Shown in pieces: positions 2,475 to 55,349 of a stretch of 64,000 nt of DNA. Under the pieces are notes generated by a model. The model was not told the origin of the DNA. It searched no databases and saw only the letters and a list, made by a program, of their open reading frames with translations. A program made the translations under genes and the position numbers. Source of the stretch: Candidatus Enterousia sp. GTDB taxonomy: Bacteria > Pseudomonadota > Alphaproteobacteria > Rs-D84. The number at the start of each line of letters is the position of its first letter. Position 1 is the stretch's first letter. The stretch spans positions 2,280 to 66,279 of the forward strand of contig JAZRPS010000018.1 in assembly GCA_045649345.1 (NCBI GenBank). Direction: 5' to 3'.

Positions 2475-2491
2475 GCTTAAAATCCTTTAAT

Positions 2492-4929: not shown

Positions 4930-5706
4930 ATGAGAAGAGAATTTTTTATCTTTTTACCTTTTGTTTTTATGGCATATTCTGCCCATTGCATCACATGTCC
5001 CAGCGGTTATTTGGCGGCATCACGTGACAACAACACCAAGATTTCAACACCATGTCCGTCTGGTTATACCGCGACACGTACAATTTCACATAATTGCAGT
5101 GCCACAGACAGTACATGCTATCCTGAATTATTATGCACAGCTGGGTCATATGATTTAAACGTTGGTTCAAATACCGTGCCACTGTGGTCCCGGGCATTCA
5201 CAACAAAATCATTAAAAGTAAAATCAGGCAACACGACATGCTATGCACAAATGGCAGCAGACGTGGTCAGTGGACGTTTAAAAGTCAAAGACAGCAGTGG
5301 CACAACATATTCGCATGCGAACATATATGAATGTAAGGTAAATATCAGTGCAACTGGCACAAATTCATATAGCGTTCCAACCACAAACAGTCCAAATTGG
5401 ACTGCAACAGTTGATGGTAAAACAATAAAAGGAATCGCATTTTGTAGCAATATCGCGTCCAGCGTTGGTACCGCCCAGGATAACATAACGGTTGATTCTG
5501 TTACATTATCAAATAACAACCAATGTTGGTGTCGTGCGACAAGCCCATATTATACAAAATGGATTTATGCCACTGTATTCATTGATGCAGGTTATACGGG
5601 CTGCTATAAATCTTGCAATGAATGGTGCGCAAAACGTGCCGCCAGTACAGGTACGAACGACGTCACATTTCGCAACGCATTAATAAAAAACCTGGTCAGG
5701 ACATAG
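4930..5706 (+). CDS. cysteine-rich secreted protein, paralog 1 of tandem family
   Basis: Signal peptide MRREFFIFLPFVFMAYSAHC. Repeated CPSGY motif. C-terminal CWCRATSPYYTKWIYA...C..C..C...DVTFR module shared with the next two genes. Confidence 0.8.
   Translation: MRREFFIFLPFVFMAYSAHCITCPSGYLAASRDNNTKISTPCPSGYTATRTISHNCSATDSTCYPELLCTAGSYDLNVGSNTVPLWSRAFTTKSLKVKSGNTTCYAQMAADVVSGRLKVKDSSGTTYSHANIYECKVNISATGTNSYSVPTTNSPNWTATVDGKTIKGIAFCSNIASSVGTAQDNITVDSVTLSNNNQCWCRATSPYYTKWIYATVFIDAGYTGCYKSCNEWCAKRAASTGTNDVTFRNALIKNLVRT
4993..5400 (+). repeat. 408-bp near-identical tract, copy A (partner 6275..6682)
   Basis: Aligned by eye at a constant offset of 1282. I counted 8 mismatches. Identity collapses right after ..agtccaaaYtgg. 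Confidence 0.9.
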
Positions 5707-5765
5707 TTTTTATGTTGTACGAAAAAACCAATTTTGGTATATTCATAAAAAGGAACGAGGGGAAA

Positions 5766-6212
5766 GTGATTTTTAACAAATACTTTGGATTTATTTATTT
5801 ATTTATAATGGCAAGTATTACTGACGCCATGGCTTTGTCACAATGTATAAAATTATCCCCAACATCTGGCGTATGCAGTCAGGTTTCCGCTGCCTATAGG
5901 GATGTCAACGCTGTTGTAGATTGCGGGGGAACCCAGGTAACGATTGTCAGCACATGTGCCATGACATCGGGGACAGCAGACGTTACTGCACTGGACGATA
6001 TTGTCATCAGTTCTGCTGCACCTGCAAACAACATACACTGCTGGTGCAAAATAATATCACCAGTTGTCACAAAATGGGTTTACCGTTATTCGTACGGTTC
6101 AAATACTAATTGCGCATACAGTTGTGTCCGCGGATGCGCAAATGCGTTTTTGTATGCAGAAAGTCAGGACGTCACATTCAGAACAACCGCATATTCAAAT
6201 CTGGTTTATTAA
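5766..6212 (+). CDS. cysteine-rich secreted protein, paralog 2 (short form; start uncertain, alternative ATG at 5712)
   Basis: GTG at 5766 follows aggaacgagggga. Signal-like IFNKYFGFIYLFIMASITDAMA. C-terminal CWCKIISPVVTKWVYR...DVTFR module. Confidence 0.65.
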   Translation: MIFNKYFGFIYLFIMASITDAMALSQCIKLSPTSGVCSQVSAAYRDVNAVVDCGGTQVTIVSTCAMTSGTADVTALDDIVISSAAPANNIHCWCKIISPVVTKWVYRYSYGSNTNCAYSCVRGCANAFLYAESQDVTFRTTAYSNLVY

Positions 6213-6214
6213 AG

Positions 6215-6988
6215 ATGTATAAATATTTTATATCTTTACCATTATTATTAATCACATGTAATGCAATGGCTGCGACATGCCCCAGCGGTTATTTGGCGGT
6301 ATCACGTGACAACAACACCAAAATTTCCACGCCATGTCCGTCTGGTTATACCGCGACACGTACAATTTCACATAATTGCAGTGCCACAGACAGTACATGC
6401 TATCCTGAATTATTATGCACAGCTGGGTCATATGATTTAAACGTTGGTTCAAATACCATGCCACTGTGGTCCCGGGCATTCACAACAAAATCATTAAAAG
6501 TAAAATCAGGCAACACGACATGCTATGCACAAATGGCAGCAGACGTGGTCAGTGGACGTTTAAAAGTCAAAGACAGCAGTGGCACAACATATTCACATGC
6601 GAACATATATGAATGTAAGGTAAATATCAGTGCAACTGGCACAAATTCATATAGCGTTCCAACCACAAACAGTCCAAACTGGACCGCCGTCATCGACGGC
6701 AAAACCATAAAGGGCATATCGTTCTGTGGCAACCTAAGTGCAACAGTGGACACAACAAAAGACATTATTACCGTCGATTCTGTCACAATGTCAAACAACA
6801 TTTATTGTTGGTGTCGCGCAACATCCCCATATACTTCAAAATGGACATATGCCACATACTATTCAACAAATGGTTATACCGGGTGTTATATGTATTGCAG
6901 TCAATCGTGTGCCAGCCGTTTATCCGGCAGCGGAAGTTTAGATACAACATTCAGAAGCACAATGCTTAATTCTATGTCAAAATCATAA
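6215..6988 (+). CDS. cysteine-rich secreted protein, paralog 3
   Basis: ATG lies 2 nt after the previous stop. Signal MYKYFISLPLLLITCNAMA. The N-terminal half is nearly identical to paralog 1. C-terminal CWCRATSPYTSKWTYA...TTFR. Confidence 0.8.
   Translation: MYKYFISLPLLLITCNAMAATCPSGYLAVSRDNNTKISTPCPSGYTATRTISHNCSATDSTCYPELLCTAGSYDLNVGSNTMPLWSRAFTTKSLKVKSGNTTCYAQMAADVVSGRLKVKDSSGTTYSHANIYECKVNISATGTNSYSVPTTNSPNWTAVIDGKTIKGISFCGNLSATVDTTKDIITVDSVTMSNNIYCWCRATSPYTSKWTYATYYSTNGYTGCYMYCSQSCASRLSGSGSLDTTFRSTMLNSMSKS
6275..6682 (+). repeat. 408-bp near-identical tract, copy B (partner 4993..5400)
   Basis: See copy A. Confidence 0.9.
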
Positions 6989-13090: not shown

Positions 13091-13116
13091 AAAATCCCCC
13101 AACGGGGGATTTTTTA
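13088..13116 (-). terminator. terminator AAAATCCCCC-aac-GGGGGATTTT after the 428-aa gene
   Basis: Same stem family as 6991..7012. It lies directly downstream of the stop at 13114. Confidence 0.75.
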
Positions 13117-14400
13117 TTTACGTAATGTTGTATCCAACATATCCTGGGGGGCAATAACCTTCGAACCAGAGATACCACTGCTAGAACTACTGGTACTGGA
13201 ACTAGCATCGGTCGTACTAACACTTTCGCCTTTTACACACGGGGCATATTCTTCTATTGTAACCTTGGTCCAACACTGATTATCTACATCAGCATCAGAA
13301 TCTTTGGTCTTTCCCTTGCCATATTGCAAATCGCTTTTCTTGTACGCATCTGCATTGGCACATGCACTGGTATCTGTATTAAAATACTGTCCAACACGGT
13401 CACAAACCACACATTGACCATTTTTCGGATCTTGCCCACCACGAATAGAAGTGGCACAATCTTCACAATCAAAATTACCTGATGCAGGGAATGCTTTCGA
13501 CGCATCTTTGCAAAAATATCTAATACAAGAGCCTTCCCCATCTAACCGATGAATATCTGGATCATAACTATCAATCGGCCAACCATTACACATTGGCTTT
13601 TCTTCATACGCCAATAAATCTAACATATTTTGTGTTAATTTTACACACTCCGCACCAGTTTGATCGGCGATATAACCTTCGGCACACAGCAATTTATATT
13701 TCCCACTCGAAAAACTTTTTATATAATCAACATACGACCAATTTGTACATCCCTGATTTGTTCTACATTTAACTTCGATTGGGCCTGCAACGATACCATG
13801 TTCCTTAAAATCAATGACACCCAACAAAACATCATGTTCATAGTCGCTGTCGTTGTCGTCAGGACCGTCCCTGTCTTCATACCACGTATGAAAAGCAACA
13901 TTAGATGCCTCTGTACCACCGTCAGCACCACCAGATGTTTTCATACTTAAACCTGCAAACAATCCGTTAAGGTTGGTTGGTGTACTGCTACCCTCTGTCA
14001 CAATCGCCACCTTGGTGCAATTTGTCCCTGTATACCCCTTCTCACAAAACCAAGCACATTTTGAATCATCAAAACCAGTCGGATCATAATACACGGTATT
14101 AGATTTATGTCTACAATTTGTATTTGAACACTGAATCTGTTGTGGGCAAAAATATCCACCATGTTCAACAATTTGCCTTGCAATCACTGCGACAACACCA
14201 TACTCATCGCCATATGTTCCATGTTGTCCCTTATCACCAACTGAACCCGAAATAACAAAATTGCCTGTATTATATTGATTGCCAGACTCAAAAAGGCTGC
14301 CATCTTTCCACGAACTATACAAACCCGACACTGTACGAATTGCCCTGGCATCGTTAACAACCAACATGCAAAATAAACAAAACAAATATTTCCACTTCAT
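13114..14400 (-). CDS. cysteine-rich secreted protein with EGF-like / furin-like Cys spacing and a Ser-rich tail
   Basis: Signal MKWKYLFCLFCMLVVNDARA. CAWFCEKGYTGTNC and LLCAEGYIADQTGAEC resemble EGF-like spacing. C-terminus has a SSSTSSSSSG tail. Only 15 nt separate it from the upstream gene. Confidence 0.8.
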   Translation of the reverse strand: MKWKYLFCLFCMLVVNDARAIRTVSGLYSSWKDGSLFESGNQYNTGNFVISGSVGDKGQHGTYGDEYGVVAVIARQIVEHGGYFCPQQIQCSNTNCRHKSNTVYYDPTGFDDSKCAWFCEKGYTGTNCTKVAIVTEGSSTPTNLNGLFAGLSMKTSGGADGGTEASNVAFHTWYEDRDGPDDNDSDYEHDVLLGVIDFKEHGIVAGPIEVKCRTNQGCTNWSYVDYIKSFSSGKYKLLCAEGYIADQTGAECVKLTQNMLDLLAYEEKPMCNGWPIDSYDPDIHRLDGEGSCIRYFCKDASKAFPASGNFDCEDCATSIRGGQDPKNGQCVVCDRVGQYFNTDTSACANADAYKKSDLQYGKGKTKDSDADVDNQCWTKVTIEEYAPCVKGESVSTTDASSSTSSSSSGISGSKVIAPQDMLDTTLRK

Positions 14401-14415: not shown

Positions 14416-16851
14416 TTATTCCGGCTTTACATAACATACGCCATTTTCATAATACCCATTTCCCATTAACTTACAACGCTGTTCAAACCATGCTTCTTTG
14501 AACGTACATTCATCACGTGACAGGTCATATGATGCAACATTCATATTCTTGTCACCTTCTTCGTTATAATTCAAACAATGTATCATCGTGCTATTTTCAA
14601 CACACTTTCCATATGACATGTTATTTGTATTTCCACCATAAACATTGTTATAAAACGCTGTTAATGTTTTCAATTTCCCATCTTTATTATTAAATTCAGG
14701 ATGTTCAACCGGTATCCAGTAACCATCAATCGCCTCACACTCTTCGCCCAGCATATAATCCACCTGTTCTTCGACATCACGAATTGAATTTTCAACCGTT
14801 AATCTAACCTGTTGTGGCAAAGAAGCATACCCCTGTGATTCCTGTGTCGGATCAGAACAATTCTTTACCGCAAAATCTTTCACATTTGACCATAGCGATG
14901 CATTATACGATGCATCAGCCGTATGTTCTTCATTCCCAACTGTTTTCAAAAGACAATTCCATGGATATCCCTTGTCCCCGGTCGCAGGTGTACACAAATC
15001 CGTCACATATTTTTCAACCGCGGCTGCACACCCCTCTGCCACACGGGTATTGTCAACGGAATCAACAAAATCTAACAATGCCTCCAGACCGCAACGTTTA
15101 CCAGCACTGCTTTTCTGTAATTTTCCATTCCCATCAAACGAACAGCCATCTGTATCGCCATACAACGCCGCACACGCCGTCACTTTTTCCTGACACATCG
15201 CTTTGGCTGCATATGCAGATAACGCACCTGCATTTTTCGCCGTTGTTGTATCAAAATCTTTTAATGCACTTGATTGCGTATCATAACATTGCGCCATTGT
15301 ACTAACACAAGTTGTTTTTACTTCTTCTATTTTTTCATCTTGCGCTTGGGCAATTTCTATCAATGCGCTACGCTTAAATTCCGTCCATACGACATCCGCA
15401 ATACCGCGACATGAATCCAATGCGGACGTCGCAAACATACGTTTTTCGTCCAAAAACTGACTAAACTTTGGATTTTGAGCCAACAAATCAGTACTTGCAT
15501 CTGCGCCACCCAACACAATTAAATTTTCCAGTTCAAATAGACGCTGGGAATAAATTGGTTCGCCGGTTGTTGAATTTATATACGCACCGCTGTAATCCAA
15601 ACAACGGTTATAATTCGGTCCACACGCCACATCTGTTGTCAAAGCGGCCTTTACCTTGGTAATACATTCATTAACATCCGCAGAATTATGCGCACGATAT
15701 TCTTCTAGGCGCGCCTCTCTCAAAAACTTTTCTGCCTGACGAACCGTGGTCAATACAGCTTCGCGCTGTTTATTAATTTTCTTTTCATACGCATTACAAT
15801 CCTGGGTAATCATTATATTATATGCACTGGTTGCCATATTTAAGACCGCGCTATTTTCACATGCATCACCAACCAATTGCAAACACTGTTTATTTGAAAT
15901 ATTATACAGGTCTATACCCTCCATAACACTCATATCAACACCGGTATCTGCATCAAATATCGAACTGCCTGAATCGCCACCCCAAATATCATCCACATCA
16001 GCTGAAAAATCCACGGACATCAAACCAGACAACCTATTATTTTGTTGTTGTGGTTGCGTTGCTTTCTTCTTTCCTGACAACAAGTCCCCAATTTCATTCA
16101 GAATATTTTGCGCGCCACTGGTATCTTTTTTAATTGCTTGTTCACCAATTGTGGCACTGTACATTGCCTCAACCTCTGCTACGGTTTTATCAACAGCATT
16201 TAAATTATTATCCTCAAACTGCTGCAACAATACTTTTGCTTGATCCAAGGCTTCTTCTGTATCACGAAATTCTGTGAACCTTGCACTGCAAAAGCATCTG
16301 CGATACGTATCGTTCGCATTTGCACAGAATTGATCCATACATGTCGCATACGATTCGCGACACTGGGCATAACCACCGCCAATTTTTGAAACATCTGTAA
16401 ACACCGCTGTTGCACGTGCAACACGCGCCATACCGGCATTTGAAACATTTGTTGCACTGCGCGCGCGCCCCCCGGTCACCGGTGCAACCGCACTGCGTGC
16501 CACAGACGCATTTGTCTTAACGACGGCACCACTGCGCGCACCAGACACTTTTGCACCAGAACGCGCAACAGAATTCTGACGAACGGCACCACGCGCAACA
16601 GGCGCACTAACAACATTACTTGCACTGCGCGCACCAGACACATTTGCCCCAGAACGACCAACCAAGCCACGTGAAATATTTTGTCCCCCAATCACAGAAC
16701 GTTTTGATACACGCCCCTCTGCACGCGCAACCGTTGGTACAGAAACAGCACTACGCGGATTTGGCGCCTGATCTGCATACACAAAGCCACCGACAAAAAA
16801 CGTCGCAAAAAGCGCAGAAAACTTAAAAAAAACACAACCAAAACGTTTCAC
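14416..16851 (-). CDS. large secreted protein: Arg/Ser/Ala/Gly low-complexity N-region plus cysteine-rich helical body
   Basis: GTG start and signal-like MKRFGCVFFKFSALFATFFVGGFVYA. Repeated ARSGA.VSGARS units. Many paired Cys residues (CRESYATCMDQFC..). 811 aa. Confidence 0.8.
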   Translation of the reverse strand: MKRFGCVFFKFSALFATFFVGGFVYADQAPNPRSAVSVPTVARAEGRVSKRSVIGGQNISRGLVGRSGANVSGARSASNVVSAPVARGAVRQNSVARSGAKVSGARSGAVVKTNASVARSAVAPVTGGRARSATNVSNAGMARVARATAVFTDVSKIGGGYAQCRESYATCMDQFCANANDTYRRCFCSARFTEFRDTEEALDQAKVLLQQFEDNNLNAVDKTVAEVEAMYSATIGEQAIKKDTSGAQNILNEIGDLLSGKKKATQPQQQNNRLSGLMSVDFSADVDDIWGGDSGSSIFDADTGVDMSVMEGIDLYNISNKQCLQLVGDACENSAVLNMATSAYNIMITQDCNAYEKKINKQREAVLTTVRQAEKFLREARLEEYRAHNSADVNECITKVKAALTTDVACGPNYNRCLDYSGAYINSTTGEPIYSQRLFELENLIVLGGADASTDLLAQNPKFSQFLDEKRMFATSALDSCRGIADVVWTEFKRSALIEIAQAQDEKIEEVKTTCVSTMAQCYDTQSSALKDFDTTTAKNAGALSAYAAKAMCQEKVTACAALYGDTDGCSFDGNGKLQKSSAGKRCGLEALLDFVDSVDNTRVAEGCAAAVEKYVTDLCTPATGDKGYPWNCLLKTVGNEEHTADASYNASLWSNVKDFAVKNCSDPTQESQGYASLPQQVRLTVENSIRDVEEQVDYMLGEECEAIDGYWIPVEHPEFNNKDGKLKTLTAFYNNVYGGNTNNMSYGKCVENSTMIHCLNYNEEGDKNMNVASYDLSRDECTFKEAWFEQRCKLMGNGYYENGVCYVKPE

Positions 16852-24412: not shown

Positions 24413-24625
24413 ATGCATGAACCAGTACAAAAATTAAATCCAGAATCAATAACCAGCGACATTTACGTCATTGCCCCGACCCAGATTGAATACATTGCAC
24501 GCCTGTTTGGCAACACGGTTGCGGACACAATGAACATGCGCACATTTGCCCCAAAAATCCGCCAGATTGCGGAACAGGCCTTGCGTCACGCCTTAGGCAA
24601 CGCACGCAAAATGGGCGAAAAATAA
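24413..24625 (+). CDS. small hypothetical protein (70 aa)
   Basis: ATG preceded by aggggggataaaaac and by the promoter above. No recognisable domain. Confidence 0.55.
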   Translation: MHEPVQKLNPESITSDIYVIAPTQIEYIARLFGNTVADTMNMRTFAPKIRQIAEQALRHALGNARKMGEK

Positions 24626-24650
24626 GCCAATTCCAACACCAAAACTTTTT

Positions 24651-24787
24651 GAGTTTTGTCATTCCTGCGTAGGCAGGAACAGGGTCTATAAAATTTACAT
24701 TCATCACTATTTTATAATTTCTATGGTTCGCGTTGCTCACGCTGTATAGCCCCACTCCTGCTATCGCTGGGTGACAAGAACATAAAC
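24651..24787. repeat. REP/MITE-like hairpin repeat, second locus
   Basis: gagttttgtcattcc + ttcctgc-gtag-gcaggaa (24662..24679), then cccactcctgc (24751..24761). Same order and flanks as 12941..13030, also in a convergent gap. Confidence 0.7.
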
Positions 24788-24811
24788 AAAATCCCCCAAA
24801 CGGGGGATTTT
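24788..24811. terminator. bidirectional terminator AAAATCCCCC-aaac-GGGGGATTTT
   Basis: Its core is identical to the copies at 49432 and 63555. It lies directly after the giant gene's stop. Confidence 0.8.
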
Positions 24812-24813
24812 CC

Positions 24814-27800
24814 TTATTCAACGGCATAATATTTAGTTCCGCCAACATTCACACGCAACGAACCGCTTGGTGCGTTTCCTGTATCTTGTTCCAAACGCCC
24901 ATAACAAGCCGTCTGACCACCATCCAAGCTGACCCCAATTGCACGCGCCCAACCGGCACCCTTGGATGAATACAGCGGTATCGACAGACCTGTGCTGGAC
25001 TTAATATAATTCATACCCGGCACAGTACACATCTGACCACACATTGGATTGCCATTTGCATCAACGGTCTGATTATACCCATCATTACATTCCCATGGGC
25101 AGTCAAGCCCCCCATTCCAACCAACCGTTGTATAAACCGCATTTTCTGGTGCGTTTGTACACGCCGGACACGTCGTTGTTTTGCCATAATATACAATACT
25201 TGCTTCCCAATATGTACCTGCGGCACATTGTTTCTGTTCCTCCGAATACGGTGTATCAATATAATAACCTTCCTCTAACACACCATAACACTCGCTTTCG
25301 TCATCTGCCCCCCTATAAGATCCTGAATAGAAACCATTTTCTGTCAGTGCCGCGCAACTATAAAACCCACCATTCGAACCATAATTAACATTGACTCCAC
25401 CTGGGCAATAAGCCCCCCCTGGGCACGCCTCTGGATACTCTGTAGAGTATACAGCCTCGCCCGGTTTTGTTGTCAGATAGCACTGCGTTGCTTGCGATGA
25501 ACCGACCGGACTATACGGATAATATCCTGTTTCCTCTTGTACAATCAACGATGAACAACTGTTTATCCCCATTTCTTCCAAATATTCACCAGACGAACAC
25601 TTTGGTATCAGGGAATTACTTGCATACCCTGGGCAATACGAACCCTCTGGACACTGAACCGCAGTACGATAATACATATAAGTACCACCATTCTTGCAAT
25701 ACCAATCAGAATACCGTGTCTTGAAATAGAACCCTGGATTCAGTGTTGCATAATACTGATCACCACCTATATCATAATCACCAGTATTTTCATTAAAACG
25801 TACACTTTCGATATTTGTATCACCTGCTGCATTCGTTATAAAATACTGTGCACGACATAAACCGATACTACCAAGCCCCTTGGTCCATAACTGTTGCTTA
25901 AAGTCACGAACATTTATCATATTCGCATTATCTGGCGCATGACCATCTTGCCACACCGGATACCAAGACGCAGGAAATGTTGTCATTCTGGTATCATCAT
26001 TCGCCGCAGGACAGGCATTGTTTCCTCCAGTTGCCCCCCAATAAATATCCGTCGCAGGACAATAATAACCACCTGGACACGTCACCGGTGCTGCATTTGG
26101 TTCTGCCACATATGTACCGGCCGTTGTTGTCAGATAGCACTGATTTTGTGCCGTTGCACGTGCCGGCGACGCACCATAGTTTGTCGGACATATTTCCATA
26201 CCAAATGTCGACGTATGCACCGTTGCCTGATTTGACGAATCACATGCCACCTTGTCTTTACCTGGGCAATACTGACCAGATTCACATTCGTTCAGCACAT
26301 GATAATACGCATACGCACCACATGCCACCGGACTGCTTAGATAATAACCTGGTTGTACACTCATATACCCCCACGCAGTTGTATTACTATATTCGCCGTT
26401 TTCTTCATCACCAACATACATTGCGTATTCATACAATGATGCCTTACCACCTTGGTCAACTGGCTTTGCCGTATACCAGCTTAGCACCTGGCAACCGGTA
26501 ATATCACCAACAAGCGTACGACTTGTCACACTTGTATTCGTCAATTCTTCCAACATATCCAGTGTCACTGTTGGCATAATCAAGTTGCTGTTTGTTGATG
26601 TAAACTGTGTCGTACGTCTATGCGTCCGGGCATCAGGACATGCCTTTCGTATACCGGTTTGTGCGGTACAATAATATCCACCATCACATCCTGCTTGCCC
26701 TGTACACGCAACGCCATCAGTACATTCTGCACCATTTTTGGTTGTATAATAACCCCAACTTACTGTATTACACGATGTTTGTGCGGTTAAATCCTGATAC
26801 TTATCTTGCCCACTGCATGCGATATATTCATACCCCAGCACATCCACAGACGTCTCACCATAACCAACCGAATGTGATGTTGGCTGATAATACCCCGGAT
26901 CTGTTGCGACATATTGTGTTGCGCCGGATTCTGCGACGTAATACCCACCTGGAACATCCATTAAACACTGACGAACAAGTTCTTTACCCAGTGCTGTATT
27001 ATCTAAATATGGATCTGGACACGGATAATTACCCCCATGTTCTGGCTGTTCATCAGAGCCACCATCAGAAACGAACGTATAAATCTTTTCATCACCTGGA
27101 CAGTAATCATCCGCTGGACACGGTGCGGCACCGGTGCCTTGCGCCGCCACATATTCGCCCGGTTTTAGTGTCACATAACACAGCCCCCATTCACTATTAC
27201 CAGGTGCCGATTCTGGATATTTCGGAGAACAATATTCAAACCCACCGGTCATATCCGAACCGCTTTGTTTACCATAATAGACCGTCGTCCCACCGATACA
27301 AAACTGCCCAGCCTGACACATAACCTGACCTGCGCCCTGTTCATAGACAGCATAACCACCAGACGTATTCAAATAACACAAATCCTTGCTTTCTGCGCCG
27401 ACATCAGAATAAACATACTTACCATTCGTACCCCATGCACATGTCGCCGCCCCCAAATCATCGCCATATGTAAACGATGTATAACCAAACTGTGTCCGCA
27501 CAGAATCTGCTGCACCACACTTCGGCATTGATTTCAATCCTGGGCAATAACTATTTTGTGGGCATTTTTCTGCAAATTGATAGTACATTCCATTTGCATT
27601 ACCGGTTGTGCAATATGTCGCAGTATACGGCGTATGTAAATAATACCCCGGATTTAATTGCGCATAATACGGTATCAAAGCCCTATCATCAGTATACTGT
27701 TCACTGTCGCTGTCATAATAAATACCTTCCAGCAGCATTGTACCCGCGTCATTTTGAATCGTATACGTCACACGACATTGATTAATTGATTGCAAATTCT

Positions 27801-30800
27801 TGCTCCATGTATTTAGCGTCACAACACTAACAACCGATGTATTCTTTCGTTCATCTGGCAACTTGGCAGAATCCACCCAATCAACGTTTTCCCGGGGGGC
27901 ATAGTTTTCATCTGCTGGATCTGGGCAAGCTTCCCGCCCACAATCCATGGTGGCACTAAAACTGCACGTTGCACCCGGACAGTACGAACCACCCGCCCCA
28001 CATTCTGCCGGCGTTAACGACCCAGCTGGCAGATAAGAACCCGCCGGAACCGTCACTGATACAGGCACGCATTTTTGTGTGGCATTTGTAATGGTTGCGG
28101 CACCATCTGACACCTGATACCCATAATTACATGTACAGTGCGTCTGATCCGCCGACGTGGTTGAATTCACCGGACATGTATAATACCCCAAATATTTATT
28201 TGTAACGCACCAAGTAATTGGATCGTTTTCTTTAGCCACTTCATCAATGGTCACAGTATACCCTGGACAAAAATAAGACATATCACCACCGGCGCAAGAC
28301 CCCACCGTATTAACAAAAGTGAAATCACACCCATCAATACTATCCCCCGGTTGCAATTTGAATGCACATTGACCGCGCGAACTGATTGCGCTTTGTGCAT
28401 CAACAAAGGAATCAGGACACTCTTCAACACCTGTCAAACCTGGACCTTGATATTTTATTTTGTCCCCGCCCGGGCAATAATAAGCTCCCACATCCATACC
28501 ATACAAGATTGCATCTCGCATTATTATTTCACTATCACATGCATCAACTGTCACAGATCCATTTGCCTGATCAACTGATACGGCATAACCTGGGGACAGA
28601 TTGATATAACACACATTTTCATCTTCCAACCCCATTGTATTGTCAGACGTGGCGCCTGGATCTGATGTAAAGTGTTCAGGACATGAATAAATCCCCCCGT
28701 CCTTAGATTCATTATATGTGACATTTTGAACCCCCGGACAATAAGAACCCGCTAGGCATATATCACATGTCGTCTTACCCATTGGCAAATATGTCCCAGC
28801 CTCGCAAGAGAACTTTTTCGCCGTGCGACATGCATATAATTTTTCCGGAACAGAATCACCGTCGTAAAAATAATAATCTGTCCCTGGGGTATACGTTGCA
28901 CGTTCGCAACCCGTATCTGTCCCCCATTGATTCGTAAAGTTATAAATAGAACTGGACAAAGATGTCGTTGCTGGGAACTTATTATCGCCCATGTCATAAT
29001 ACACCCTTTGTACCGCAGAATCCGTACCAGAAACACCATTAATCGTACCAGAACCGCCGTTTTTATCCAACACAATCTGGGCATAACAAGCGCCTTGACT
29101 GCCCGGTTCAGAATACACGAACCGATCCGACCCCAGGTCATCAGCACAGGTCATGGCAGAGGAAAGCACGACCTTTTGGGCGCCATAATAAAATCTGTCT
29201 GAGTAAAACGAATAATTCGCCGGCGATAAATCTGTGGTCAATCCAGCCACCCCATCATCAGTATAACCTAAGAAAATCAATCTGTATCCTGAATATGATT
29301 CGACATAACACTGTGTTTTTTGACTTGATGTATTGCTGGCACTGCCGATATTGAGGTGCGATTTATCTGTGGTGGTTTCAAAAGTAAACCAGTCAGAACA
29401 AGAATGGCGTCCAAAATCACCACCTGCGGTTGTACCACCGCCACCCGGGCAGTAATAGCCATAACCACACTTGTTATTACATGTTGTTTCGCCCTTTTTG
29501 GCATAGTATCCCGGCGCACATGTCACACCGTTTTCAATCCATTGCGCTGTAAACTCTATGGCATACGGGGATTCACACCCACCACCAACAATTGACACAT
29601 CGTCGCCCGGTTGAAAAACATTCCCCAGATACCCACCATCACAATCATCGCCGGTATTCATCCAACCTGCAAAGACATAGCCCGCTTTTGAACAAGATAT
29701 TTCCGGCAATATACACTCACCACTGTTTGCATAACATTCCATGGTCGGCAATTCACACCCCGAAACGCCGATATTAAAATCGACGGTCATATCAACACCC
29801 TTTTTTACCGCGTACAGGCGTGCCGGACAGCCTTCGTCACCAACCTTTATTGATGTCATCTGGTTCGGCACCTTTGCCAACGAATACGCTGAGTGTGGCA
29901 TCGGCTTGTCCGGCGACCAATAACCGGTAAAGGTCGCGTTTTCTGCACTCAATGTCGATGCCCGGGGCAGGGTAATTGTCACACCATAATTCAGTTTCCT
30001 TGTTGCGTTGTTGGTACCCGTCGCACCAAAAATCGTACCACTTAATCCATTTTTATCCAATACCGTCGTACAATAACATGATGATAGCGTACTGGCAGTG
30101 ATATCACTGGTAAAACCAGCTGGGCATTCTGTCGCGGTCGCACTGACTTGGCCATAATAAATCTTTTCATCGGCGCCATAGCCCCCCTCTGGATATTCAC
30201 CACCGGGACAATATGAACCCACCGGACAATCTTCGGGTTCTGCATATGGCGTCAAAACCGTAAATCCAGGAACCGCCAAACCAAAACATTGTTCGGGTTT
30301 TGACGCGCCCACGCCATCAGTGCCATAGTAAAAGCCAGCTGTGTTTGGCAAATAAACACATCTTGTACTTGGCAATGCGTCTGTATACGTTTCTCCATCT
30401 GTACAGGACATATTGCCCGTGTGATTGCAATAATAGTTGATGGGGCATTTTTGTACAGCCTTGTAATACCGCTGACCACCATAGCAAACACCATTGTTCG
30501 CCGGGGTTGTCAGCTGATACCCCGGGGTCACATAATAATATGCCCACGCAGAATCAGACGCACTGGTTTCTTCATATTTACCAGTTTCTTCGTTATAAGT
30601 CACATATTCATACAACCCGGCTGGCGCGCCATTCGGTTTCCAGAAAAATAACGCCTGGCAACCTGTTACGGCACTTTGTCCCGTACGTTGTGATAAACTG
30701 GAACTGCCCAATATCACGTTTGACAGACTAATCGTCACACCGGTTGAATTATTTGCGTTATACGCAGCTGGAAACGCCGCCGTACGAACCGCACTTTTCG

Positions 30801-32004
30801 GGTCTGGACATTCTTCTTTCTGCCCACCAGTACAATAATAACCACCATCGCATATCGTCTGACCGGTACATCTGGTACCATTATTGGTACATGTTGTACC
30901 ACCCGTCGCGTAATACCCACTTGACGTATTTGAACACGCCGATGCACCAGCCGCCGAATATTTATAACCCGTACATTCATACATTCCGCTATTCGCATTT
31001 GGATTATGGCCATACGTTCCTCCCGGGCAACGATACCCGGCAACACATGTTGCACATGTTGTTGCACCACGTGGCAAATACGTCCCAGCCGAACAAGGGT
31101 ATGACTTTGCCGACCAACACGCATACAGTGTTGTATCTGCATACACGCGTGGATCGTTCGCATAGTATCCATTCGCATTAATTATCTGCGTACCACTGCA
31201 CCCAGGACTTTTATAATAACCACCAAAATCATCCCCTGTCTTTACCGGTATTGTAATTGGGTTTGCAGACGAAACCATCTTTTTGGCATACGCCGAATCT
31301 AAATACATTCCATTACCATAGATATAGTATAAACTGGCAGTTCCCTGGGTATCACAACCCTGGCAATCCAGGCTGATTCCTGGTTTTGCCTTTATCACAG
31401 GGTATAATGTATACGACGTCGCAGTACTTATATTCGTAAATGTCACAGCCGTTGAACTAGAGCTAGAACCATAGGTAGAATTCGCCATAGTCGATGCCCA
31501 ACCACCAACTTCGTACCACTTGCTATCAAAGGTCAAACCACTGGATGCCGGCAATGTAAACGCCGTGTTATAATAAACCTGAATCGTTAAATCACCACTG
31601 GACCATGCAATTGTCCCGCCCGTCACAGGATTCAAAACATTCAGCGTGCCGGTTGCAGAACTGTTCCCACCATTATACTTACGACTGATGACAACATTAC
31701 GATAACATTGATTGCGCGCGGTTTTACCGGCACCACCCGTCGTCCAAATATTGCTGGAATTGGCGGTTGTTGAACCACTGTCACAATCATGTGGCGCAGT
31801 ATATGTTCCCCCAGGGCAATAAGAACCAACAGGACAAATCACACACGAATTTCCAACACCCGTACCACTAAGATAATAGCCGGCATTACATGACGTATAC
31901 TGCTTATACGACGGACACGTATACCCCGCACCAAACGCATCAACGACAAAAAATGAAACGAACAAAATCGCGCAAAGACGCAGAAATCCTGAAAATCTTC
32001 CCAC
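24814..32004 (-). CDS. giant (2,396 aa) cysteine-rich secreted mosaic protein, adhesin-like
   Basis: Uninterrupted ORF. GTG start preceded by agaggaag. Signal MGRFSGFLRLCAILFVSFFVVDAFGA. Recurrent CP.G.YCPGG motif, NGG...GY.F.GW repeats, and four ~130-aa internal modules. Confidence 0.9.
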   Translation of the reverse strand: MGRFSGFLRLCAILFVSFFVVDAFGAGYTCPSYKQYTSCNAGYYLSGTGVGNSCVICPVGSYCPGGTYTAPHDCDSGSTTANSSNIWTTGGAGKTARNQCYRNVVISRKYNGGNSSATGTLNVLNPVTGGTIAWSSGDLTIQVYYNTAFTLPASSGLTFDSKWYEVGGWASTMANSTYGSSSSSTAVTFTNISTATSYTLYPVIKAKPGISLDCQGCDTQGTASLYYIYGNGMYLDSAYAKKMVSSANPITIPVKTGDDFGGYYKSPGCSGTQIINANGYYANDPRVYADTTLYACWSAKSYPCSAGTYLPRGATTCATCVAGYRCPGGTYGHNPNANSGMYECTGYKYSAAGASACSNTSSGYYATGGTTCTNNGTRCTGQTICDGGYYCTGGQKEECPDPKSAVRTAAFPAAYNANNSTGVTISLSNVILGSSSLSQRTGQSAVTGCQALFFWKPNGAPAGLYEYVTYNEETGKYEETSASDSAWAYYYVTPGYQLTTPANNGVCYGGQRYYKAVQKCPINYYCNHTGNMSCTDGETYTDALPSTRCVYLPNTAGFYYGTDGVGASKPEQCFGLAVPGFTVLTPYAEPEDCPVGSYCPGGEYPEGGYGADEKIYYGQVSATATECPAGFTSDITASTLSSCYCTTVLDKNGLSGTIFGATGTNNATRKLNYGVTITLPRASTLSAENATFTGYWSPDKPMPHSAYSLAKVPNQMTSIKVGDEGCPARLYAVKKGVDMTVDFNIGVSGCELPTMECYANSGECILPEISCSKAGYVFAGWMNTGDDCDGGYLGNVFQPGDDVSIVGGGCESPYAIEFTAQWIENGVTCAPGYYAKKGETTCNNKCGYGYYCPGGGGTTAGGDFGRHSCSDWFTFETTTDKSHLNIGSASNTSSQKTQCYVESYSGYRLIFLGYTDDGVAGLTTDLSPANYSFYSDRFYYGAQKVVLSSAMTCADDLGSDRFVYSEPGSQGACYAQIVLDKNGGSGTINGVSGTDSAVQRVYYDMGDNKFPATTSLSSSIYNFTNQWGTDTGCERATYTPGTDYYFYDGDSVPEKLYACRTAKKFSCEAGTYLPMGKTTCDICLAGSYCPGVQNVTYNESKDGGIYSCPEHFTSDPGATSDNTMGLEDENVCYINLSPGYAVSVDQANGSVTVDACDSEIIMRDAILYGMDVGAYYCPGGDKIKYQGPGLTGVEECPDSFVDAQSAISSRGQCAFKLQPGDSIDGCDFTFVNTVGSCAGGDMSYFCPGYTVTIDEVAKENDPITWCVTNKYLGYYTCPVNSTTSADQTHCTCNYGYQVSDGAATITNATQKCVPVSVTVPAGSYLPAGSLTPAECGAGGSYCPGATCSFSATMDCGREACPDPADENYAPRENVDWVDSAKLPDERKNTSVVSVVTLNTWSKNLQSINQCRVTYTIQNDAGTMLLEGIYYDSDSEQYTDDRALIPYYAQLNPGYYLHTPYTATYCTTGNANGMYYQFAEKCPQNSYCPGLKSMPKCGAADSVRTQFGYTSFTYGDDLGAATCAWGTNGKYVYSDVGAESKDLCYLNTSGGYAVYEQGAGQVMCQAGQFCIGGTTVYYGKQSGSDMTGGFEYCSPKYPESAPGNSEWGLCYVTLKPGEYVAAQGTGAAPCPADDYCPGDEKIYTFVSDGGSDEQPEHGGNYPCPDPYLDNTALGKELVRQCLMDVPGGYYVAESGATQYVATDPGYYQPTSHSVGYGETSVDVLGYEYIACSGQDKYQDLTAQTSCNTVSWGYYTTKNGAECTDGVACTGQAGCDGGYYCTAQTGIRKACPDARTHRRTTQFTSTNSNLIMPTVTLDMLEELTNTSVTSRTLVGDITGCQVLSWYTAKPVDQGGKASLYEYAMYVGDEENGEYSNTTAWGYMSVQPGYYLSSPVACGAYAYYHVLNECESGQYCPGKDKVACDSSNQATVHTSTFGMEICPTNYGASPARATAQNQCYLTTTAGTYVAEPNAAPVTCPGGYYCPATDIYWGATGGNNACPAANDDTRMTTFPASWYPVWQDGHAPDNANMINVRDFKQQLWTKGLGSIGLCRAQYFITNAAGDTNIESVRFNENTGDYDIGGDQYYATLNPGFYFKTRYSDWYCKNGGTYMYYRTAVQCPEGSYCPGYASNSLIPKCSSGEYLEEMGINSCSSLIVQEETGYYPYSPVGSSQATQCYLTTKPGEAVYSTEYPEACPGGAYCPGGVNVNYGSNGGFYSCAALTENGFYSGSYRGADDESECYGVLEEGYYIDTPYSEEQKQCAAGTYWEASIVYYGKTTTCPACTNAPENAVYTTVGWNGGLDCPWECNDGYNQTVDANGNPMCGQMCTVPGMNYIKSSTGLSIPLYSSKGAGWARAIGVSLDGGQTACYGRLEQDTGNAPSGSLRVNVGGTKYYAVE

Positions 32005-32057
32005 TTTTCTTCCTCTTTATACCCATATCTTAGAAAAAAGCAAGGGGACTGCACAAG

Positions 32058-32086
32058 CAAAAAATCCGGCGACGCCGGATTTTTTT
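32058..32086 (-). terminator. terminator after the M14-like gene
   Basis: atccggc-gac-gccggat flanked by A and T runs. Confidence 0.7.
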
Positions 32087-51693: not shown

Positions 51694-51714
51694 ACGCATA
51701 CTCCCCAATTGTTT

Positions 51715-52323
51715 TTATTTCTTTTTTGGTGGCGCGAACTGATAAGCCTGCTTACAATGCTCATAACAATACGGTTTGCCCACAAAAACCGTTTCGCCAC
51801 AAAAATGGAAATGTTCAGAATCAGGATCGCCGATCGGCCACCGACACTGATTTGGTTTTAAACTTGCCATTTCCAAGGAATGCTGAATAATCCGCTGATG
51901 CATTGCCAAGTTTTTCGCACTTGTTTTCGCCGACACTGTCTTGCATTCTGTATTCTTTGGCGTCGCAATTTTCTTTTCAATCGGCGCCTTTTTTGCAACA
52001 ACAGATTTCTTTGGCTCAGCTTTTTTTGTCACCACCTTCTTTGCAGCTGGTTTTTTTGCTGCGACAACTGCCGTCTTCTTTGCAACCGTTTTTTTTGCCA
52101 CCGCCTCTTTCACAGACGTTTTTTTCGTTGCAGTATTCTTTTCTTTCAACGGTTCTGCCTTGGCTGCGCCACCTGCCTTGGCATTCCAGCCCAGACGATT
52201 CAGTTTACCAACAATGGCATTTTTTGACATTCCCAAACGCTTGCCAATCTCAGCTGTCGACAACCCCTTGCCAGTCAAAGCCTTTAACTTTTTTAACGCG
52301 ACACTATCCCAACCCTTGCTCAT
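51715..52323 (-). CDS. gcrA: cell-cycle transcriptional regulator GcrA
   Basis: N-terminus W..V.LKKLKAL...GLSTAEIGKRLG.SKNAIVGKLNRLGW. C-terminus CRWPIGDPDSEHFHFCG...PYCYEHCKQAYQ. Lys/Ala-rich linker. Confidence 0.9.
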   Translation of the reverse strand: MSKGWDSVALKKLKALTGKGLSTAEIGKRLGMSKNAIVGKLNRLGWNAKAGGAAKAEPLKEKNTATKKTSVKEAVAKKTVAKKTAVVAAKKPAAKKVVTKKAEPKKSVVAKKAPIEKKIATPKNTECKTVSAKTSAKNLAMHQRIIQHSLEMASLKPNQCRWPIGDPDSEHFHFCGETVFVGKPYCYEHCKQAYQFAPPKKK

Positions 52324-52865: not shown

Positions 52866-52888
52866 TACACACATACAAGGGAACAGGA

Positions 52889-55340: not shown

Positions 55341-55349
55341 TATTAAGAA

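What the first reader, a model, noticed from the sequence alone, without database searches (positions are those of the whole stretch)
24814..32004. Giant 2,396-aa cysteine-rich secreted mosaic protein occupying 11% of the window
A single uninterrupted 7.2-kb ORF runs between its own promoter-like region and a terminator. It has a GTG start after agaggaag and a Sec-type signal peptide. Cys made up about 7% of the two 100-residue stretches I counted. The recurring motif is C-P-x-G-x-Y-C-P-G-G, together with T-C-x-x-C-x-A-G-x-Y. This resembles eukaryotic GCC2_GCC3 / ephrin-receptor-like repeats and Giardia VSP-type repeats more than typical bacterial adhesin repeats. The protein also carries about five units with the Listeria-Bacteroides (InlB B-repeat) signature, V-x-(D/Y)-x-NGG ... 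(Y/F)-x-F-x-(G/Q)-W. Examples are VLDKNGGSGT...YNFTNQWG and AGYVFAGWMN. It has no obvious autotransporter, LPXTG or T1SS-type C-terminus. Such heavy disulfide-type architecture is unusual for a bacterial protein, and it is the centrepiece of a Cys-rich exoproteome in this window.
Basis: partly seen in the sequence, partly recalled or inferred. Interest (0 to 1): 0.8.

Follow-up and report, generated by a model that had tools for sequence, protein, structure and literature searches.

The report
Hypervariable giant cysteine-rich surface protein
This 2,396-residue secreted, cysteine-rich protein is real. It belongs to an undescribed family of giant proteins in tiny-genome gut bacteria (Candidatus Enterousia). 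Its middle part differs drastically between otherwise near-identical strains, as expected for an exposed surface adhesin or antigen.

Summary
The ORF is real: window 24814-32004, minus strand, GTG start, 2,396 aa, with a Sec signal peptide, 126 Cys (5.3%) and terminators on both sides. No curated family covers it. Only one Listeria-Bacteroides repeat passes threshold, and the ephrin-receptor/TNFR-like resemblance is sub-threshold.

It belongs to a large unnamed family of 1.4-6.3 kaa Cys-rich proteins. All members found are in uncultured gut Alphaproteobacteria (Candidatus Enterousia / order Rs-D84, genomes under 1 Mb).

Members share three things:
- a signal peptide followed by AGY(T/S)C;
- a roughly 130-aa beta domain with no PDB match, present four times here;
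- a roughly 75-aa C-terminal beta domain, found in 991 protein clusters and almost always at the extreme C-terminus.

The key result is hypervariability. A second strain has SecA 100% and DnaE 99.6% identical, with 98% flank DNA identity. Its allele in the same slot is only 65% identical. The ends are 96-100% identical, but the core (aa 501-1300) is 24-66% per 50-aa block, with saturated dS and a retained Cys scaffold. A second species shows alleles of 1,490, 2,351 and 3,068 aa between 98%-identical flanks.

Best reading: a disulfide-scaffolded, exposed adhesin or antigen diversified by recombination. Function, export route and oxidative folding remain inferred.

The parts
24814..32004 (-). 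Giant gene: 2,396 codons plus stop, GTG start
   Evidence: A 2,391-aa allele sits in the same locus of an independent assembly.
32009..32016 (-). Shine-Dalgarno-like agaggaag, 4 nt upstream of the GTG
32058..32086 (-). Hairpin plus T-run terminator of the upstream DUF2817 gene. It isolates the giant gene as its own transcription unit.
   Evidence: read from the sequence; DUF2817 assignment
24788..24811 (-). Intrinsic terminator (10-bp stem, T-run) immediately after the stop codon
31930..32004 (-). Sec-type signal peptide, aa 1-25, with predicted cleavage at AFG|AGYTC
   Evidence: Only hydrophobic segment in the protein. The N-terminus is conserved across the family.
31555..31929 (-). Conserved N-terminal Cys-rich cap, aa 26-150. 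It is 96-98% identical between the two conspecific alleles.
28105..30504 (-). Hypervariable core, aa 501-1300. Identity between strains is 24-66% per 50-aa block and is lowest (24-58%) over aa 551-1200. About aa 520-1200 has no BLASTN match. dS is saturated. 38 of 45 Cys are retained.
29536..29691 (-). The one Listeria-Bacteroides (InlB B-type) repeat that passes threshold, aa 772-823
30400..30813 (-). X domain copy 1 (aa 398-535): family-specific beta domain, CPDP..R..FP ... PGYYL ... CPxxxYC
27535..27942 (-). X domain copy 2 (aa 1355-1490)
26260..26646 (-). X domain copy 3 (aa 1787-1915)
25627..26052 (-). X domain copy 4 (aa 1985-2126), the copy that was modelled
25225..26196 (-). Supermodule aa 1937-2260 (Cys knots, X domain, Cys knots). 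AF2 pLDDT 87.6, pTM 0.78. No significant PDB or BFVD match.
24817..25047 (-). C-terminal beta domain (divergent 'CTD-a', aa ~2320-2396). It is 96-100% identical between alleles. I propose it as an anchoring or sorting module.
4930..5706 (+). Small Cys-rich secreted protein with an internal CTD-a (E 4e-8) and a C-terminal CTD-b. It belongs to the same exoproteome family.
6110..6988 (+). Paralog of the 4930-5706 protein (CTD-a plus CTD-b). The real start is probably internal, at MYKYF...
5622..6212 (+). Third small Cys-rich ORF, ending in CTD-b

Best explanation
The gene encodes a lineage-specific giant exported protein of a Candidatus Enterousia-like (order Rs-D84) gut alphaproteobacterium.

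Proposed mechanism:
1. The Sec signal peptide takes the protein across the inner membrane.
2. Its roughly 125 conserved cysteines form disulfide-stapled, TNFR / ephrin-receptor-CRD-like knots. These string together a long, protease-resistant stalk. The stalk is interrupted by small beta domains: four copies of a family-specific 'X' domain and one or two InlB-B-type repeats.
3. The invariant ends mediate export and/or attachment to the cell envelope. These are the signal peptide plus the AGYTC cap at the N-terminus and the roughly 75-aa C-terminal beta domain.
4. The exposed middle part is the business end. It binds partner or host surfaces and/or is seen by antibodies and phages.
5. The middle part is kept diverse within species by recombination that swaps or reshuffles modules.

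What is shown: gene reality, family membership, architecture, the conserved genomic slot, and within-species hypervariability with conserved ends and a retained Cys scaffold.

What is inferred: disulfide formation, cell-surface location, the anchoring or sorting role of the C-terminal domain, and an adhesin/antigen function.
For: ORF, signal peptide and terminators.

Family:
- 267 hits of 1.4-4 kaa were found, and fetched loci hold ORFs up to 6,344 aa with 4.5-7.5% Cys.
- Members share the N-terminus and C-terminal domains.
- All 96 confirmed genome loci lie in uncultured gut Alphaproteobacteria or Ca. Enterousia MAGs.
- The lineage has genomes under 1 Mb, lacks a TCA cycle and respiration, and is proposed to be partner-dependent (PMC12306168).

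Hypervariability:
- In locus L081, SecA is 100% and DnaE 99.6% identical, flank DNA is 98% identical and flank dS is 0.03-0.04.
- The giant protein is 64.7% identical overall. aa 1-150 are 96-98% identical and aa 2301-2396 are 96-100%. The core (aa 501-1300) is 24-66% per 50-aa block.
- Core dS is above 1. About aa 520-1200 has no BLASTN match.
- dN/dS is 0.5-1.0 in six of the seven interior 100-aa windows with dS <= 0.30; the seventh gives 0.28.
- In the core, 38 of 45 Cys are kept, against 14 of 55 Asp and 11 of 48 Val.
- In block aa 1101-1200 the window allele is closer to a sister-species allele (64-65%) than to the conspecific one (26-34%).

Generality:
- A second species has alleles of 1,490, 2,351 and 3,068 aa between 98.4-98.8% identical flanks.
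- 48, 20 and 16 distinct 90%-identity clusters each share a single signal peptide.
- The slot TolQR-...-giant-SecA-DnaE is conserved across the genus, while the gene itself has no DNA similarity between species.

C-terminal domain:
- It aligns colinearly with the family CTD.
- Its profile finds 991 clusters. In 123 of 138 new representatives the match ends within 8 aa of the C-terminus, in proteins of 106-4,949 aa.

Structure:
- The supermodule model has pLDDT 87.6. The nearest, non-significant, folds are Elapor1, OX40R and EphA2-CRD.
- Homologs hit TNFR_ELAPOR1 and Ephrin_rec_like just below cutoff.

The organism is diderm: LpxA, LpxB and TolQR are in the window.
Against: - There is no direct evidence of expression, disulfides or surface location.
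- No outer-membrane export or anchoring machinery is linked to the gene.
- No Dsb-like oxidoreductase is present in the DNA at hand. That DNA is only partial, so this is uninformative.
- The lineage is reported to lack respiratory chains, which makes classical DsbB-type oxidation questionable.
- The link between this protein's C-terminus and the family CTD is weak by score: 10 bits directly, 16.5 bits via P0106. It rests mainly on colinear strand patterns.
- The CTD model is only moderately confident (pLDDT 72.5) and has no structural analogue.
- dN/dS stays below 1, so positive selection is not demonstrated. The pattern shows recombination or ancient alleles plus relaxed constraint.
- Only two alleles of this species were found.
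Confidence: 0.6

Rival explanations
1. It is a structural envelope or coat protein (S-layer-like or matrix protein). Its variability would reflect phage and immune pressure on a coat, not ligand binding. In this reading it does not act as an adhesin.
For: - It is highly abundant in module repeats, acidic (pI 4.5), and rich in Thr, Gly and Tyr.
- Its ends are conserved and its middle is variable, as in some S-layer proteins.
- Many family members per genome share one C-terminal domain.
Against: - Known S-layer proteins are generally Cys-poor and 40-200 kDa (general knowledge).
- There is no SLH or other known S-layer anchoring domain.
- A rod of TNFR-like knots carrying interspersed binding-type domains (a List_Bact_rpt repeat here, F5/8-type-C in homologs) looks more like an adhesin stalk.
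Confidence: 0.2
2. It is a secreted polymorphic toxin or effector delivered to neighbouring cells. The variable region would be the payload.
For: - It is giant, is found in a partner-dependent lineage, and varies within species.
- Giant virulence-factor-like proteins are transferred between partners in other bacterial symbioses (bioRxiv 10.64898/2026.03.19.712371; abstract only).
Against: - The variable part is central, not C-terminal, and the C-terminus is the most conserved part.
- There is no toxin, peptidase or nuclease domain.
- There is no immunity-like gene downstream; only a conserved 70-aa ORF and secA follow.
- No T1SS, T5SS, T6SS or T7SS genes lie nearby.
Confidence: 0.07
3. It is an assembly artefact, a chimera or a decaying pseudogene. 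The apparent variability would come from mis-assembly of repeats.
For: The data come from metagenome assemblies, the protein contains internal repeats, and most 90% clusters hold few member sequences (1-12).
Against: - The internal repeats are only 28-53% identical at protein level.
- No DNA repeat exceeds 43 nt, and there are no tandem repeats.
- The 7.2-kb frame is intact in two independent assemblies of near-equal length (2,396 and 2,391 aa), with 118 of 126 Cys conserved.
- Dozens of intact multi-kb homologs occupy the same slot.
Confidence: 0.03
4. It is a recent acquisition of eukaryotic GCC2_GCC3 / ephrin-receptor-like repeats from gut protists or the host. In that case it would be a mimic of host or protist surface proteins.
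For: - PF07699 and PF23091 hits in homologs are sub-threshold to near-threshold.
- Top Foldseek hits are Elapor1, EphA2-CRD and TNFRSF4.
- The gut habitat is shared with Cys-rich-coated protists (general knowledge).
Against: - All similarity is below curated cutoffs, and Foldseek E-values are >= 0.07.
- The most conserved module, the X domain, has no eukaryotic or any other match.
- GC content (0.46) and strand bias fit the host genome.
- The family is deeply diversified within one bacterial order. That points to old, endogenous evolution or convergence.
Confidence: 0.1

Closest known systems
NCBI 'InlB B-repeat-containing protein' annotations (TIGR02543 / PF09479 Listeria-Bacteroides repeat proteins), e.g. 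HNY25310.1 from an Alphaproteobacteria MAG
   Same: Homologs of this protein carry that automatic name. One unit here passes TIGR02543.
   Different: The repeat covers about 2% of the protein. The name says nothing about the Cys-knot stalk, the X domain, the C-terminal domain or the hypervariability. There are no LRRs and no GW or LPXTG anchoring as in Listeria internalins.
Eukaryotic GCC2_GCC3 / ephrin-receptor-like and TNFR-like cysteine-rich domains (PF07699, PF23091; ELAPOR1, EphA2 CRD, TNFRSF4)
   Same: Both have small two- or three-strand disulfide knots in tandem that form an elongated rod. The [YF]CxGG signature recurs. These are the nearest, though non-significant, fold and profile neighbours.
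   Different: All scores are below curated cutoffs on this protein (E = 5 for PF07699). The host is bacterial, and the knots are interleaved with bacterial-type beta domains.
Giardia variant-specific surface proteins and other Cys-rich coats of gut-lumen protists
   Same: By analogy only: an exported Cys-rich scaffold with conserved termini and a variable exposed region, in an anaerobic gut dweller. The Cys scaffold is conserved while surface residues turn over.
   Different: The protein has only 5 CxxC motifs, no C-terminal TM segment and no CRGKA tail. It is ten times larger. Variation here is allelic between strains; switching among silent copies has not been shown.
Giant RTX/T1SS adhesins (LapA, SiiE, BapA type) and autotransporter adhesins of Proteobacteria
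   Same: Size, modular repeat architecture and a likely adhesive role.
   Different: Those adhesins are essentially Cys-free, are exported unfolded and carry C-terminal RTX/T1SS signals or beta-barrels (general knowledge). This protein has a Sec signal peptide, 126 Cys, one GGxGxD motif, and no barrel or adjacent T1SS genes.
Giant surface proteins of reduced-genome, host-dependent bacteria (Vampirococcus / CPR, Omnitrophota)
   Same: Both are small-genome, partner-dependent lineages that invest heavily in very large exported proteins presumed to mediate cell-cell contact (PMC8080830 and PMC10066038, found; PMC12306168 for Enterousia).
   Different: The phylum is different and there is no sequence relationship. 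The Cys-rich knot architecture, the shared C-terminal domain and the documented within-species hypervariability are specific to this family.
Hypervariable surface-antigen loci maintained by recombination (e.g. Anaplasma Msp2/P44, Neisseria pilE/opa, Campylobacter fetus sap)
   Same: Conserved ends frame a variable core. The divergence is mosaic, with saturated dS next to near-identical flanks.
   Different: No silent donor cassettes, invertase or DGR were seen in the window. The donors are unknown.

Membership tests
Listeria-Bacteroides repeat (TIGR02543 / PF09479 Flg_new) | Profile match above the curated cutoff | tested here: met
   TIGR02543 scores 22.6-24.1 bits against a cutoff of 20.95 for one unit, aa 772-823. 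Pfam Flg_new reaches only E 0.053 and 14.1 bits against a cutoff of 27.
   A second unit (aa ~246-293) reaches only E 0.55. The three other proposed units give no profile signal.
GCC2_GCC3 / Ephrin_rec_like (PF07699) | Profile match above the gathering score (23.1 bits) | tested here: not met
   This protein scores 7.4 bits, E = 5. Homolog P0112 scores 18.3 bits, 2 of 20 supermodule homologs reach E about 7e-4, and a few homologs have precomputed hits.
GCC2_GCC3 / Ephrin_rec_like (PF07699) | Fold similarity to solved ephrin-receptor or TNFR cysteine-rich domains | tested here: inconclusive
   Elapor1, OX40R and EphA2-CRD are the top Foldseek hits, but with E of 0.07-7 and TM <= 0.3.
Giardia VSP | Frequent CxxC motifs, a C-terminal TM helix and a CRGKA tail | tested here: not met
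   There are 5 CxxC motifs in 2,396 aa. No hydrophobic segment exists apart from the signal peptide, and the C-terminus is ...GGTKYYAVE.
T1SS RTX giant adhesin | C-terminal GGxGxD nonapeptide array, Cys-poor sequence, adjacent ABC/MFP/TolC genes | tested here: not met
   There is one isolated GGxGxD and 126 Cys. The neighbours are DUF2817, TolQR and SecA.
Autotransporter / T5SS | C-terminal beta-barrel translocator domain or a TpsB partner | tested here: not met
   No Pfam or NCBIfam hit. The C-terminal model is a roughly 60-aa six-strand domain.
Sortase (LPXTG) substrate | LPXTG followed by a TM segment and a charged tail | tested here: not met
   There are 0 LPXTG motifs and no C-terminal hydrophobic segment. 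The organism is diderm (LpxA, LpxB).
Unnamed Enterousia / Rs-D84 giant Cys-rich protein family (defined here) | Signal peptide followed by AGY(T/S)CP at the mature N-terminus | tested here: met
   This protein starts MGRFSGFLRLCAILFVSFFVVDAFG|AGYTCPSYK. Homologs start ...A(A/G)GY(T/S)CP.YK.
Unnamed Enterousia / Rs-D84 giant Cys-rich protein family (defined here) | One or more X-domain supermodules | tested here: met
   Four copies are present. Identity to homolog segments is 32-64%, with 24 invariant columns in alignment A1.
Unnamed Enterousia / Rs-D84 giant Cys-rich protein family (defined here) | C-terminal CTD-a beta domain | tested here: inconclusive
   The five-strand pattern aligns colinearly. 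The direct HMM score is only 10 bits (16.5 for the intermediate P0106), so I treat it as a divergent subtype.
Unnamed Enterousia / Rs-D84 giant Cys-rich protein family (defined here) | Location in the conserved slot between tolQR(-DUF2817) and secA-dnaE | tested here: met

The most novel reading that the evidence does not exclude
Rs-D84 / Enterousia bacteria may carry a previously unrecognised surface-display and variation system. A lineage-specific C-terminal beta domain (about 1,000 protein clusters) would target a whole Cys-rich exoproteome to the cell surface. Its flagship giant proteins are built on a eukaryote-like disulfide-knot scaffold that is convergent with the coats of gut protists. 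These proteins would serve as hypervariable partner- or host-recognition and immune-evasion molecules, diversified by inter-strain and inter-species module exchange at fixed genomic slots. This would be the key to the obligate partner-dependent lifestyle of these tiny gut bacteria.
Probability: 0.3. Interest if true: 0.8.

Novelty: new variant of a known kind. Interest (0 to 1): 0.62.

Why it matters
Candidatus Enterousia / Rs-D84 are widespread, uncultured gut bacteria of humans and livestock. Their genomes are under 1 Mb, and their partner and lifestyle are unknown.

- One MAG devotes at least 38 kb to this family, which would be about 4% of a ~0.9-Mb genome (my estimate from lineage genome sizes). 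This gene alone takes 7.2 kb. The family is also the most variable locus between near-identical strains. That singles it out as the likely interface with the partner, the host immune system or phages.
- It gives concrete handles for finding the partner, using conserved ends as probes or baits and variable cores as specificity determinants.
- It adds two new domains to catalogue: the X domain and the C-terminal domain.
- It is a rare case of a heavily Cys-rich giant bacterial exoprotein in an anaerobe reported to lack a respiratory chain. This raises a testable question about how oxidative folding is achieved.

Tried and rejected
- Pfam and NCBIfam on the whole protein and on 300-aa tiles gave nothing above cutoff except one List_Bact_rpt unit.
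- PDB sequence searches with the protein and with the supermodule profile found nothing.
- Foldseek of the supermodule against PDB and BFVD, and of the C-terminal domain against PDB, gave no hit at E <= 1e-3.
- The alignment-based genome scan with A1 failed because no stretch was conserved enough. It worked with the subset alignment A2.
- A metagenome-contig scan with aa 1-151, meant to fetch more alleles of this species, returned 171 pattern hits but none confirmed.
- An exact look-up of the window protein in the gene index found no record.
- I searched the top 120 homologs for donors of the hypervariable core. The best match was 27-34% identical.
- I looked for DNA repeats, inverted repeats and tandem repeats that could drive phase variation or assembly collapse. 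None exist in this window. In a second species, about 150-bp inverted repeats and a mobile GIY-YIG gene do flank the giant gene.
- A diversity-generating retroelement (DGR), an invertase or a recombinase was considered as the driver. No such gene turned up among the annotated window ORFs.
Only genome fragments are at hand, so this is uninformative.
- A literature search found no paper on these proteins.
Full report
**1. Observation**

The window holds one uninterrupted ORF at 24814-32004 on the minus strand, 2,396 codons long, starting with GTG.
- The GTG is preceded by agaggaag (32009-32016). Further upstream lies the hairpin plus T-run that ends the DUF2817 gene.
- A 10-bp-stem intrinsic terminator (24788-24811) follows the stop codon.
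- The N-terminus MGRFSGFLRLCAILFVSFFVVDAFG|AGYTC is a textbook Sec signal and the only hydrophobic segment. The mature protein is 252 kDa with pI 4.5.
- Composition is G 12%, T 9.9%, Y 8.9% and C 5.26% (126 Cys, 0-11 per 100 aa).
- YCPG occurs 11 times, [YF]CxG 14 times and CPxGxYCPG 4 times.
- The gene contains no DNA repeat longer than 43 nt and no tandem repeat. Its internal repeats are old (28-53% protein identity), so repeat collapse is not a concern.

**2. Known families**

- Pfam finds nothing on the whole protein.
- On tiles, only sub-threshold hits appear: DUF7631 (24.3 bits against a cutoff of 27), Flg_new (E 0.053) and Ephrin_rec_like (E 5).
- NCBIfam finds one Listeria-Bacteroides repeat above cutoff (aa 772-823) and one weak unit (aa ~246-293). 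The other proposed units are not detected.
- No PDB sequence relative exists.
- There is no LPXTG motif, RTX array, autotransporter barrel or lipobox.

**3. Architecture**

- Tile-against-protein BLAST shows four copies of a roughly 250-300-aa supermodule, at about aa 355-612, 1320-1620, 1743-1985 and 1962-2250. There are also paired modules at 613-708 / 936-1039 and 293-400 / 1056-1198.
- Each supermodule contains a roughly 130-aa 'X domain' (CPDP..R..FP ... PGYYL ... YY....CPxxSYCPG) flanked by small Cys-rich units.
- I aligned aa 1937-2260 with 19 homolog segments (alignment A1, 24 invariant columns, 11 of them Cys). It gave a confident AlphaFold2 model (pLDDT 87.6, pTM 0.78): a seven-strand beta domain between strings of two- or three-strand knots.
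- Foldseek found no significant match in PDB or BFVD. The top non-significant PDB hits were Elapor1, OX40R/TNFRSF4, EphA2-CRD and CaSR-CRD.
- Homologs hit TNFR_ELAPOR1_6th (31.5 bits against 33.2) and Ephrin_rec_like (18.3 against 23.1) just below cutoff.
- So 'ephrin-receptor / TNFR-like Cys knots' is a reasonable description of how the stalk is built. Membership in PF07699 is not demonstrated.
- The X domain matches nothing known.

**4. Family and organism**

- The protein search returned 267 relatives. Nearly all are 1.4-4 kaa with 4.5-8.4% Cys. Where named, they are 'InlB B-repeat-containing protein' or 'hypothetical', from Alphaproteobacteria MAGs.
- A scan of one genome per species confirmed 96 loci. 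The 80 loci listed are almost all titled as uncultured gut Alphaproteobacteria or Proteobacteria, many as Candidatus Enterousia. Two titles deviate: one says 'Tenericutes' and one only 'bacterium'. Sources are ruminants, horse, chicken, mouse and Hadza humans.
- Those loci hold ORFs up to 6,344 aa, sometimes in tandem. One MAG (CAKQGH01) carries at least 12,700 codons (38 kb) of them.
- The window itself is alphaproteobacterial and diderm: GcrA, LpxA, LpxB and TolQR are present.
- Enterousia / Rs-D84 genomes are under 1 Mb and lack a TCA cycle, respiration and several glycolytic steps. A partner-dependent lifestyle has been proposed for them (PMC12306168). No paper describes these proteins.

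**5. Conserved ends**

- Family members start with a near-identical signal peptide plus A(A/G)GY(T/S)CP.YK.
- Most end in a roughly 75-aa domain that I call CTD-a: ..DCGR.LH.G..K.YLRS.KKTTPSLNVK.GDTTYYGNM...GKLRVKSG.TTYSVHDD.
- Some members add a further Cys-rich CTD-b: CWCK.TSP...W.Y....C..KCAY.CA.
- The giant's last roughly 75 aa align strand-for-strand with CTD-a via the intermediate P0106. The direct score is weak.
- The AF2 model of the last 100 aa shows a six-strand beta domain (pLDDT 72.5, or 80-90 within the domain) with no PDB analogue.
- A CTD-a profile searched against 1.84 billion representatives found 991 clusters (440 at E <= 1e-10). In 123 of 138 new representatives the match ends within 8 aa of the C-terminus. 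Those proteins range from 106 to 4,949 aa, with a median of 5.7% Cys.
- Three small Cys-rich secreted ORFs in the window carry CTD-a and/or CTD-b: 4930-5706, 5622-6212 and 6110-6988.
- This distribution is what one expects of a sorting or anchoring module shared by an exoproteome. That role is inferred, not shown.

**6. Hypervariability (the main new finding)**

- The closest relative, P0002, lies in an independent assembly (Logan SRR18763218) in the same locus: giant, 70-aa ORF, SecA, DnaE, RsmH.
- SecA is 100% identical, DnaE 99.6% and RsmH 99.3%. Flank DNA is 98.0% identical over 9.9 kb, with dS of 0.033-0.036.
- The giant proteins are only 64.7% identical.
- Identity is 96-98% over aa 1-150 and 96-100% over aa 2301-2396. 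It is 24-66% per 50-aa block over aa 501-1300, and lowest (24-58%) over aa 551-1200. Further divergent blocks lie at about aa 1501-1550, 2001-2100 and 2201-2300.
- About aa 520-1200 has no BLASTN match, and dS there is saturated (above 1).
- Of the seven interior 100-aa windows with dS <= 0.30, six have dN/dS of 0.5-1.0 and one (aa 1901-2000) has 0.28. By comparison, dN/dS is about 0 for SecA and 0.06 for DnaE.
- Length is almost unchanged (2,396 against 2,391 aa), and 118 of 126 Cys are conserved. In the core, 38 of 45 Cys are kept, against 14 of 55 Asp and 11 of 48 Val.
- In block aa 1101-1200 the window allele is 64-65% identical to the allele of a sister species (L001, roe-deer MAG, about 87% flank identity). 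It is only 26-34% identical to the conspecific allele. This indicates exchanged alleles or alleles that persist across species.
- The pattern generalises. In another species, three strains with 98.4-98.8% identical flanks and 99.4-99.7% identical SecA carry alleles of 2,351, 3,068 and 1,490 aa that differ by module gains and losses.
- Among the top 120 hits, 48, 20 and 16 distinct 90%-identity clusters each share one signal peptide. Length ranges are 1,810-2,745, 1,490-3,068 and 1,605-2,504 aa.
- Across the genus the slot RuvB-YbgC-TolQ-TolR-(TolA-like)-(DUF2817)-giant-SecA-DnaE is conserved at 73-87% DNA identity. The giant gene itself shows little or no DNA similarity between species. Some genomes hold two giants there, or another one next to gcrA.

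**7. Interpretation**

- Shown: a real, intact, Sec-exported, Cys-scaffolded modular giant protein. It belongs to a lineage-restricted family. It has conserved termini and a recombining, hypervariable centre at a fixed chromosomal slot.
- Inferred: the Cys form disulfide knots that make a stiff, protease-resistant stalk. The protein is displayed on the cell, with the C-terminal domain and/or the N-terminal cap serving export or anchoring. The variable centre interacts with partner or host surfaces and is under frequency-dependent pressure from immunity or phages.
- I put about 0.6 on this adhesin/antigen model.
- Rivals are a coat or S-layer-like role (0.2), eukaryote-derived mimicry (0.1, not exclusive of the main model), a toxin or effector (0.07) and an artefact (0.03).
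- Open problems:
  - No outer-membrane export route is evident.
  - No thiol oxidase was seen in the partial DNA at hand.
  - The lineage reportedly lacks a respiratory chain.
  - dN/dS does not exceed 1.
  - Only two alleles exist for this species.

**8. Novelty**

The kind of thing, a giant variable surface protein of a host-dependent bacterium, is known. The building blocks and combination are not described:
- a TNFR / ephrin-like Cys-knot stalk in a bacterium;
- a new X domain;
- a new C-terminal domain shared by about 1,000 clusters;
- extreme within-species allelic divergence in a genome under 1 Mb.

I rate it a new variant of a known kind, with interest 0.62.

Noticed in passing
window 4930-5706 (+), 5622-6212 (+), 6110-6988 (+): This is a cluster of three small (about 200-290 aa) Cys-rich (5-6%) secreted paralogs. 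Two carry an internal CTD-a-like domain, and all end in the CTD-b motif CWC(R/K).(T/I)SP...W.Y...C...C. The annotated starts of 5622 and 6110 probably lie too far upstream; signal-peptide-like segments begin at ...YLFIMASI and MYKYFISLPLLL.
   Followed up: partly
window 13114-14400 (-) and 14416-16851 (-): These are two further secreted, Cys-rich orphan proteins with no Pfam hit: 428 aa with 5.1% Cys and EGF-like spacing, and 811 aa with 3.6% Cys. The 811-aa protein is 94.6% identical between the two strains (dS 0.096, dN/dS 0.28). That is more divergent than SecA or DnaE but far less than the giant.
   Followed up: partly
window 24413-24625 (+): A 70-aa ORF (MHEPVQKLNPESITSD...) lies between the giant gene and secA on the opposite strand. 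A 70-71-aa gene is called in the same position in every related locus examined. It has no Pfam hit.
   Followed up: partly
L082 15209-15631, L084 6995-7417, L083 7199-7357 and 17490-17642: In a second Enterousia species a 104-aa GIY-YIG gene sits downstream of the giant gene in one strain. It sits upstream and inverted in another and is absent in a third. About 150-bp inverted-repeat copies flank the giant gene in L083. This may be a mobile endonuclease element that promotes recombination at the slot. There is no counterpart in this window.
   Followed up: partly
window 49459-51708 (-), next to gcrA at 51715-52323 (-): This 749-aa orphan has a coiled-coil-like N-terminal part, a long acidic Pro/Val/Glu-rich region, one TM segment and a terminal Cys cluster (...CSDGNAPDMNGCCAGETFVDGLCCADGTDECFPPM). 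A 693-aa gene follows gcrA in L086, where a 4,073-aa giant occupies the adjacent slot.
   Followed up: no
window 52709-57155 (+): This is a run of four orphan ORFs, three of them with signal peptides. One has TVANTANT-type low-complexity repeats, and one of 351 aa has a Gly/Ala-rich hydrophobic C-terminus. In L086 the equivalent neighbourhood contains a prepilin peptidase (Peptidase_A24), which hints at a pilus or T2SS-like apparatus.
   Followed up: no
window 24468-24848 (-): This 126-aa ORF overlaps the 3' end of the giant gene and its terminator. It is Cys-rich by chance composition and is most likely spurious.
   Followed up: no
window 1-64000: GC skew is persistently negative on the plus strand (about -0.2 over most of the window), and most long genes, including the giant, lie on the minus strand. 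This is consistent with one replichore in which the minus strand is the leading strand. The giant gene's GC content (0.46) is slightly above the window mean (about 0.42), as expected from its Gly/Cys/Ala/Thr-rich composition.
   Followed up: no
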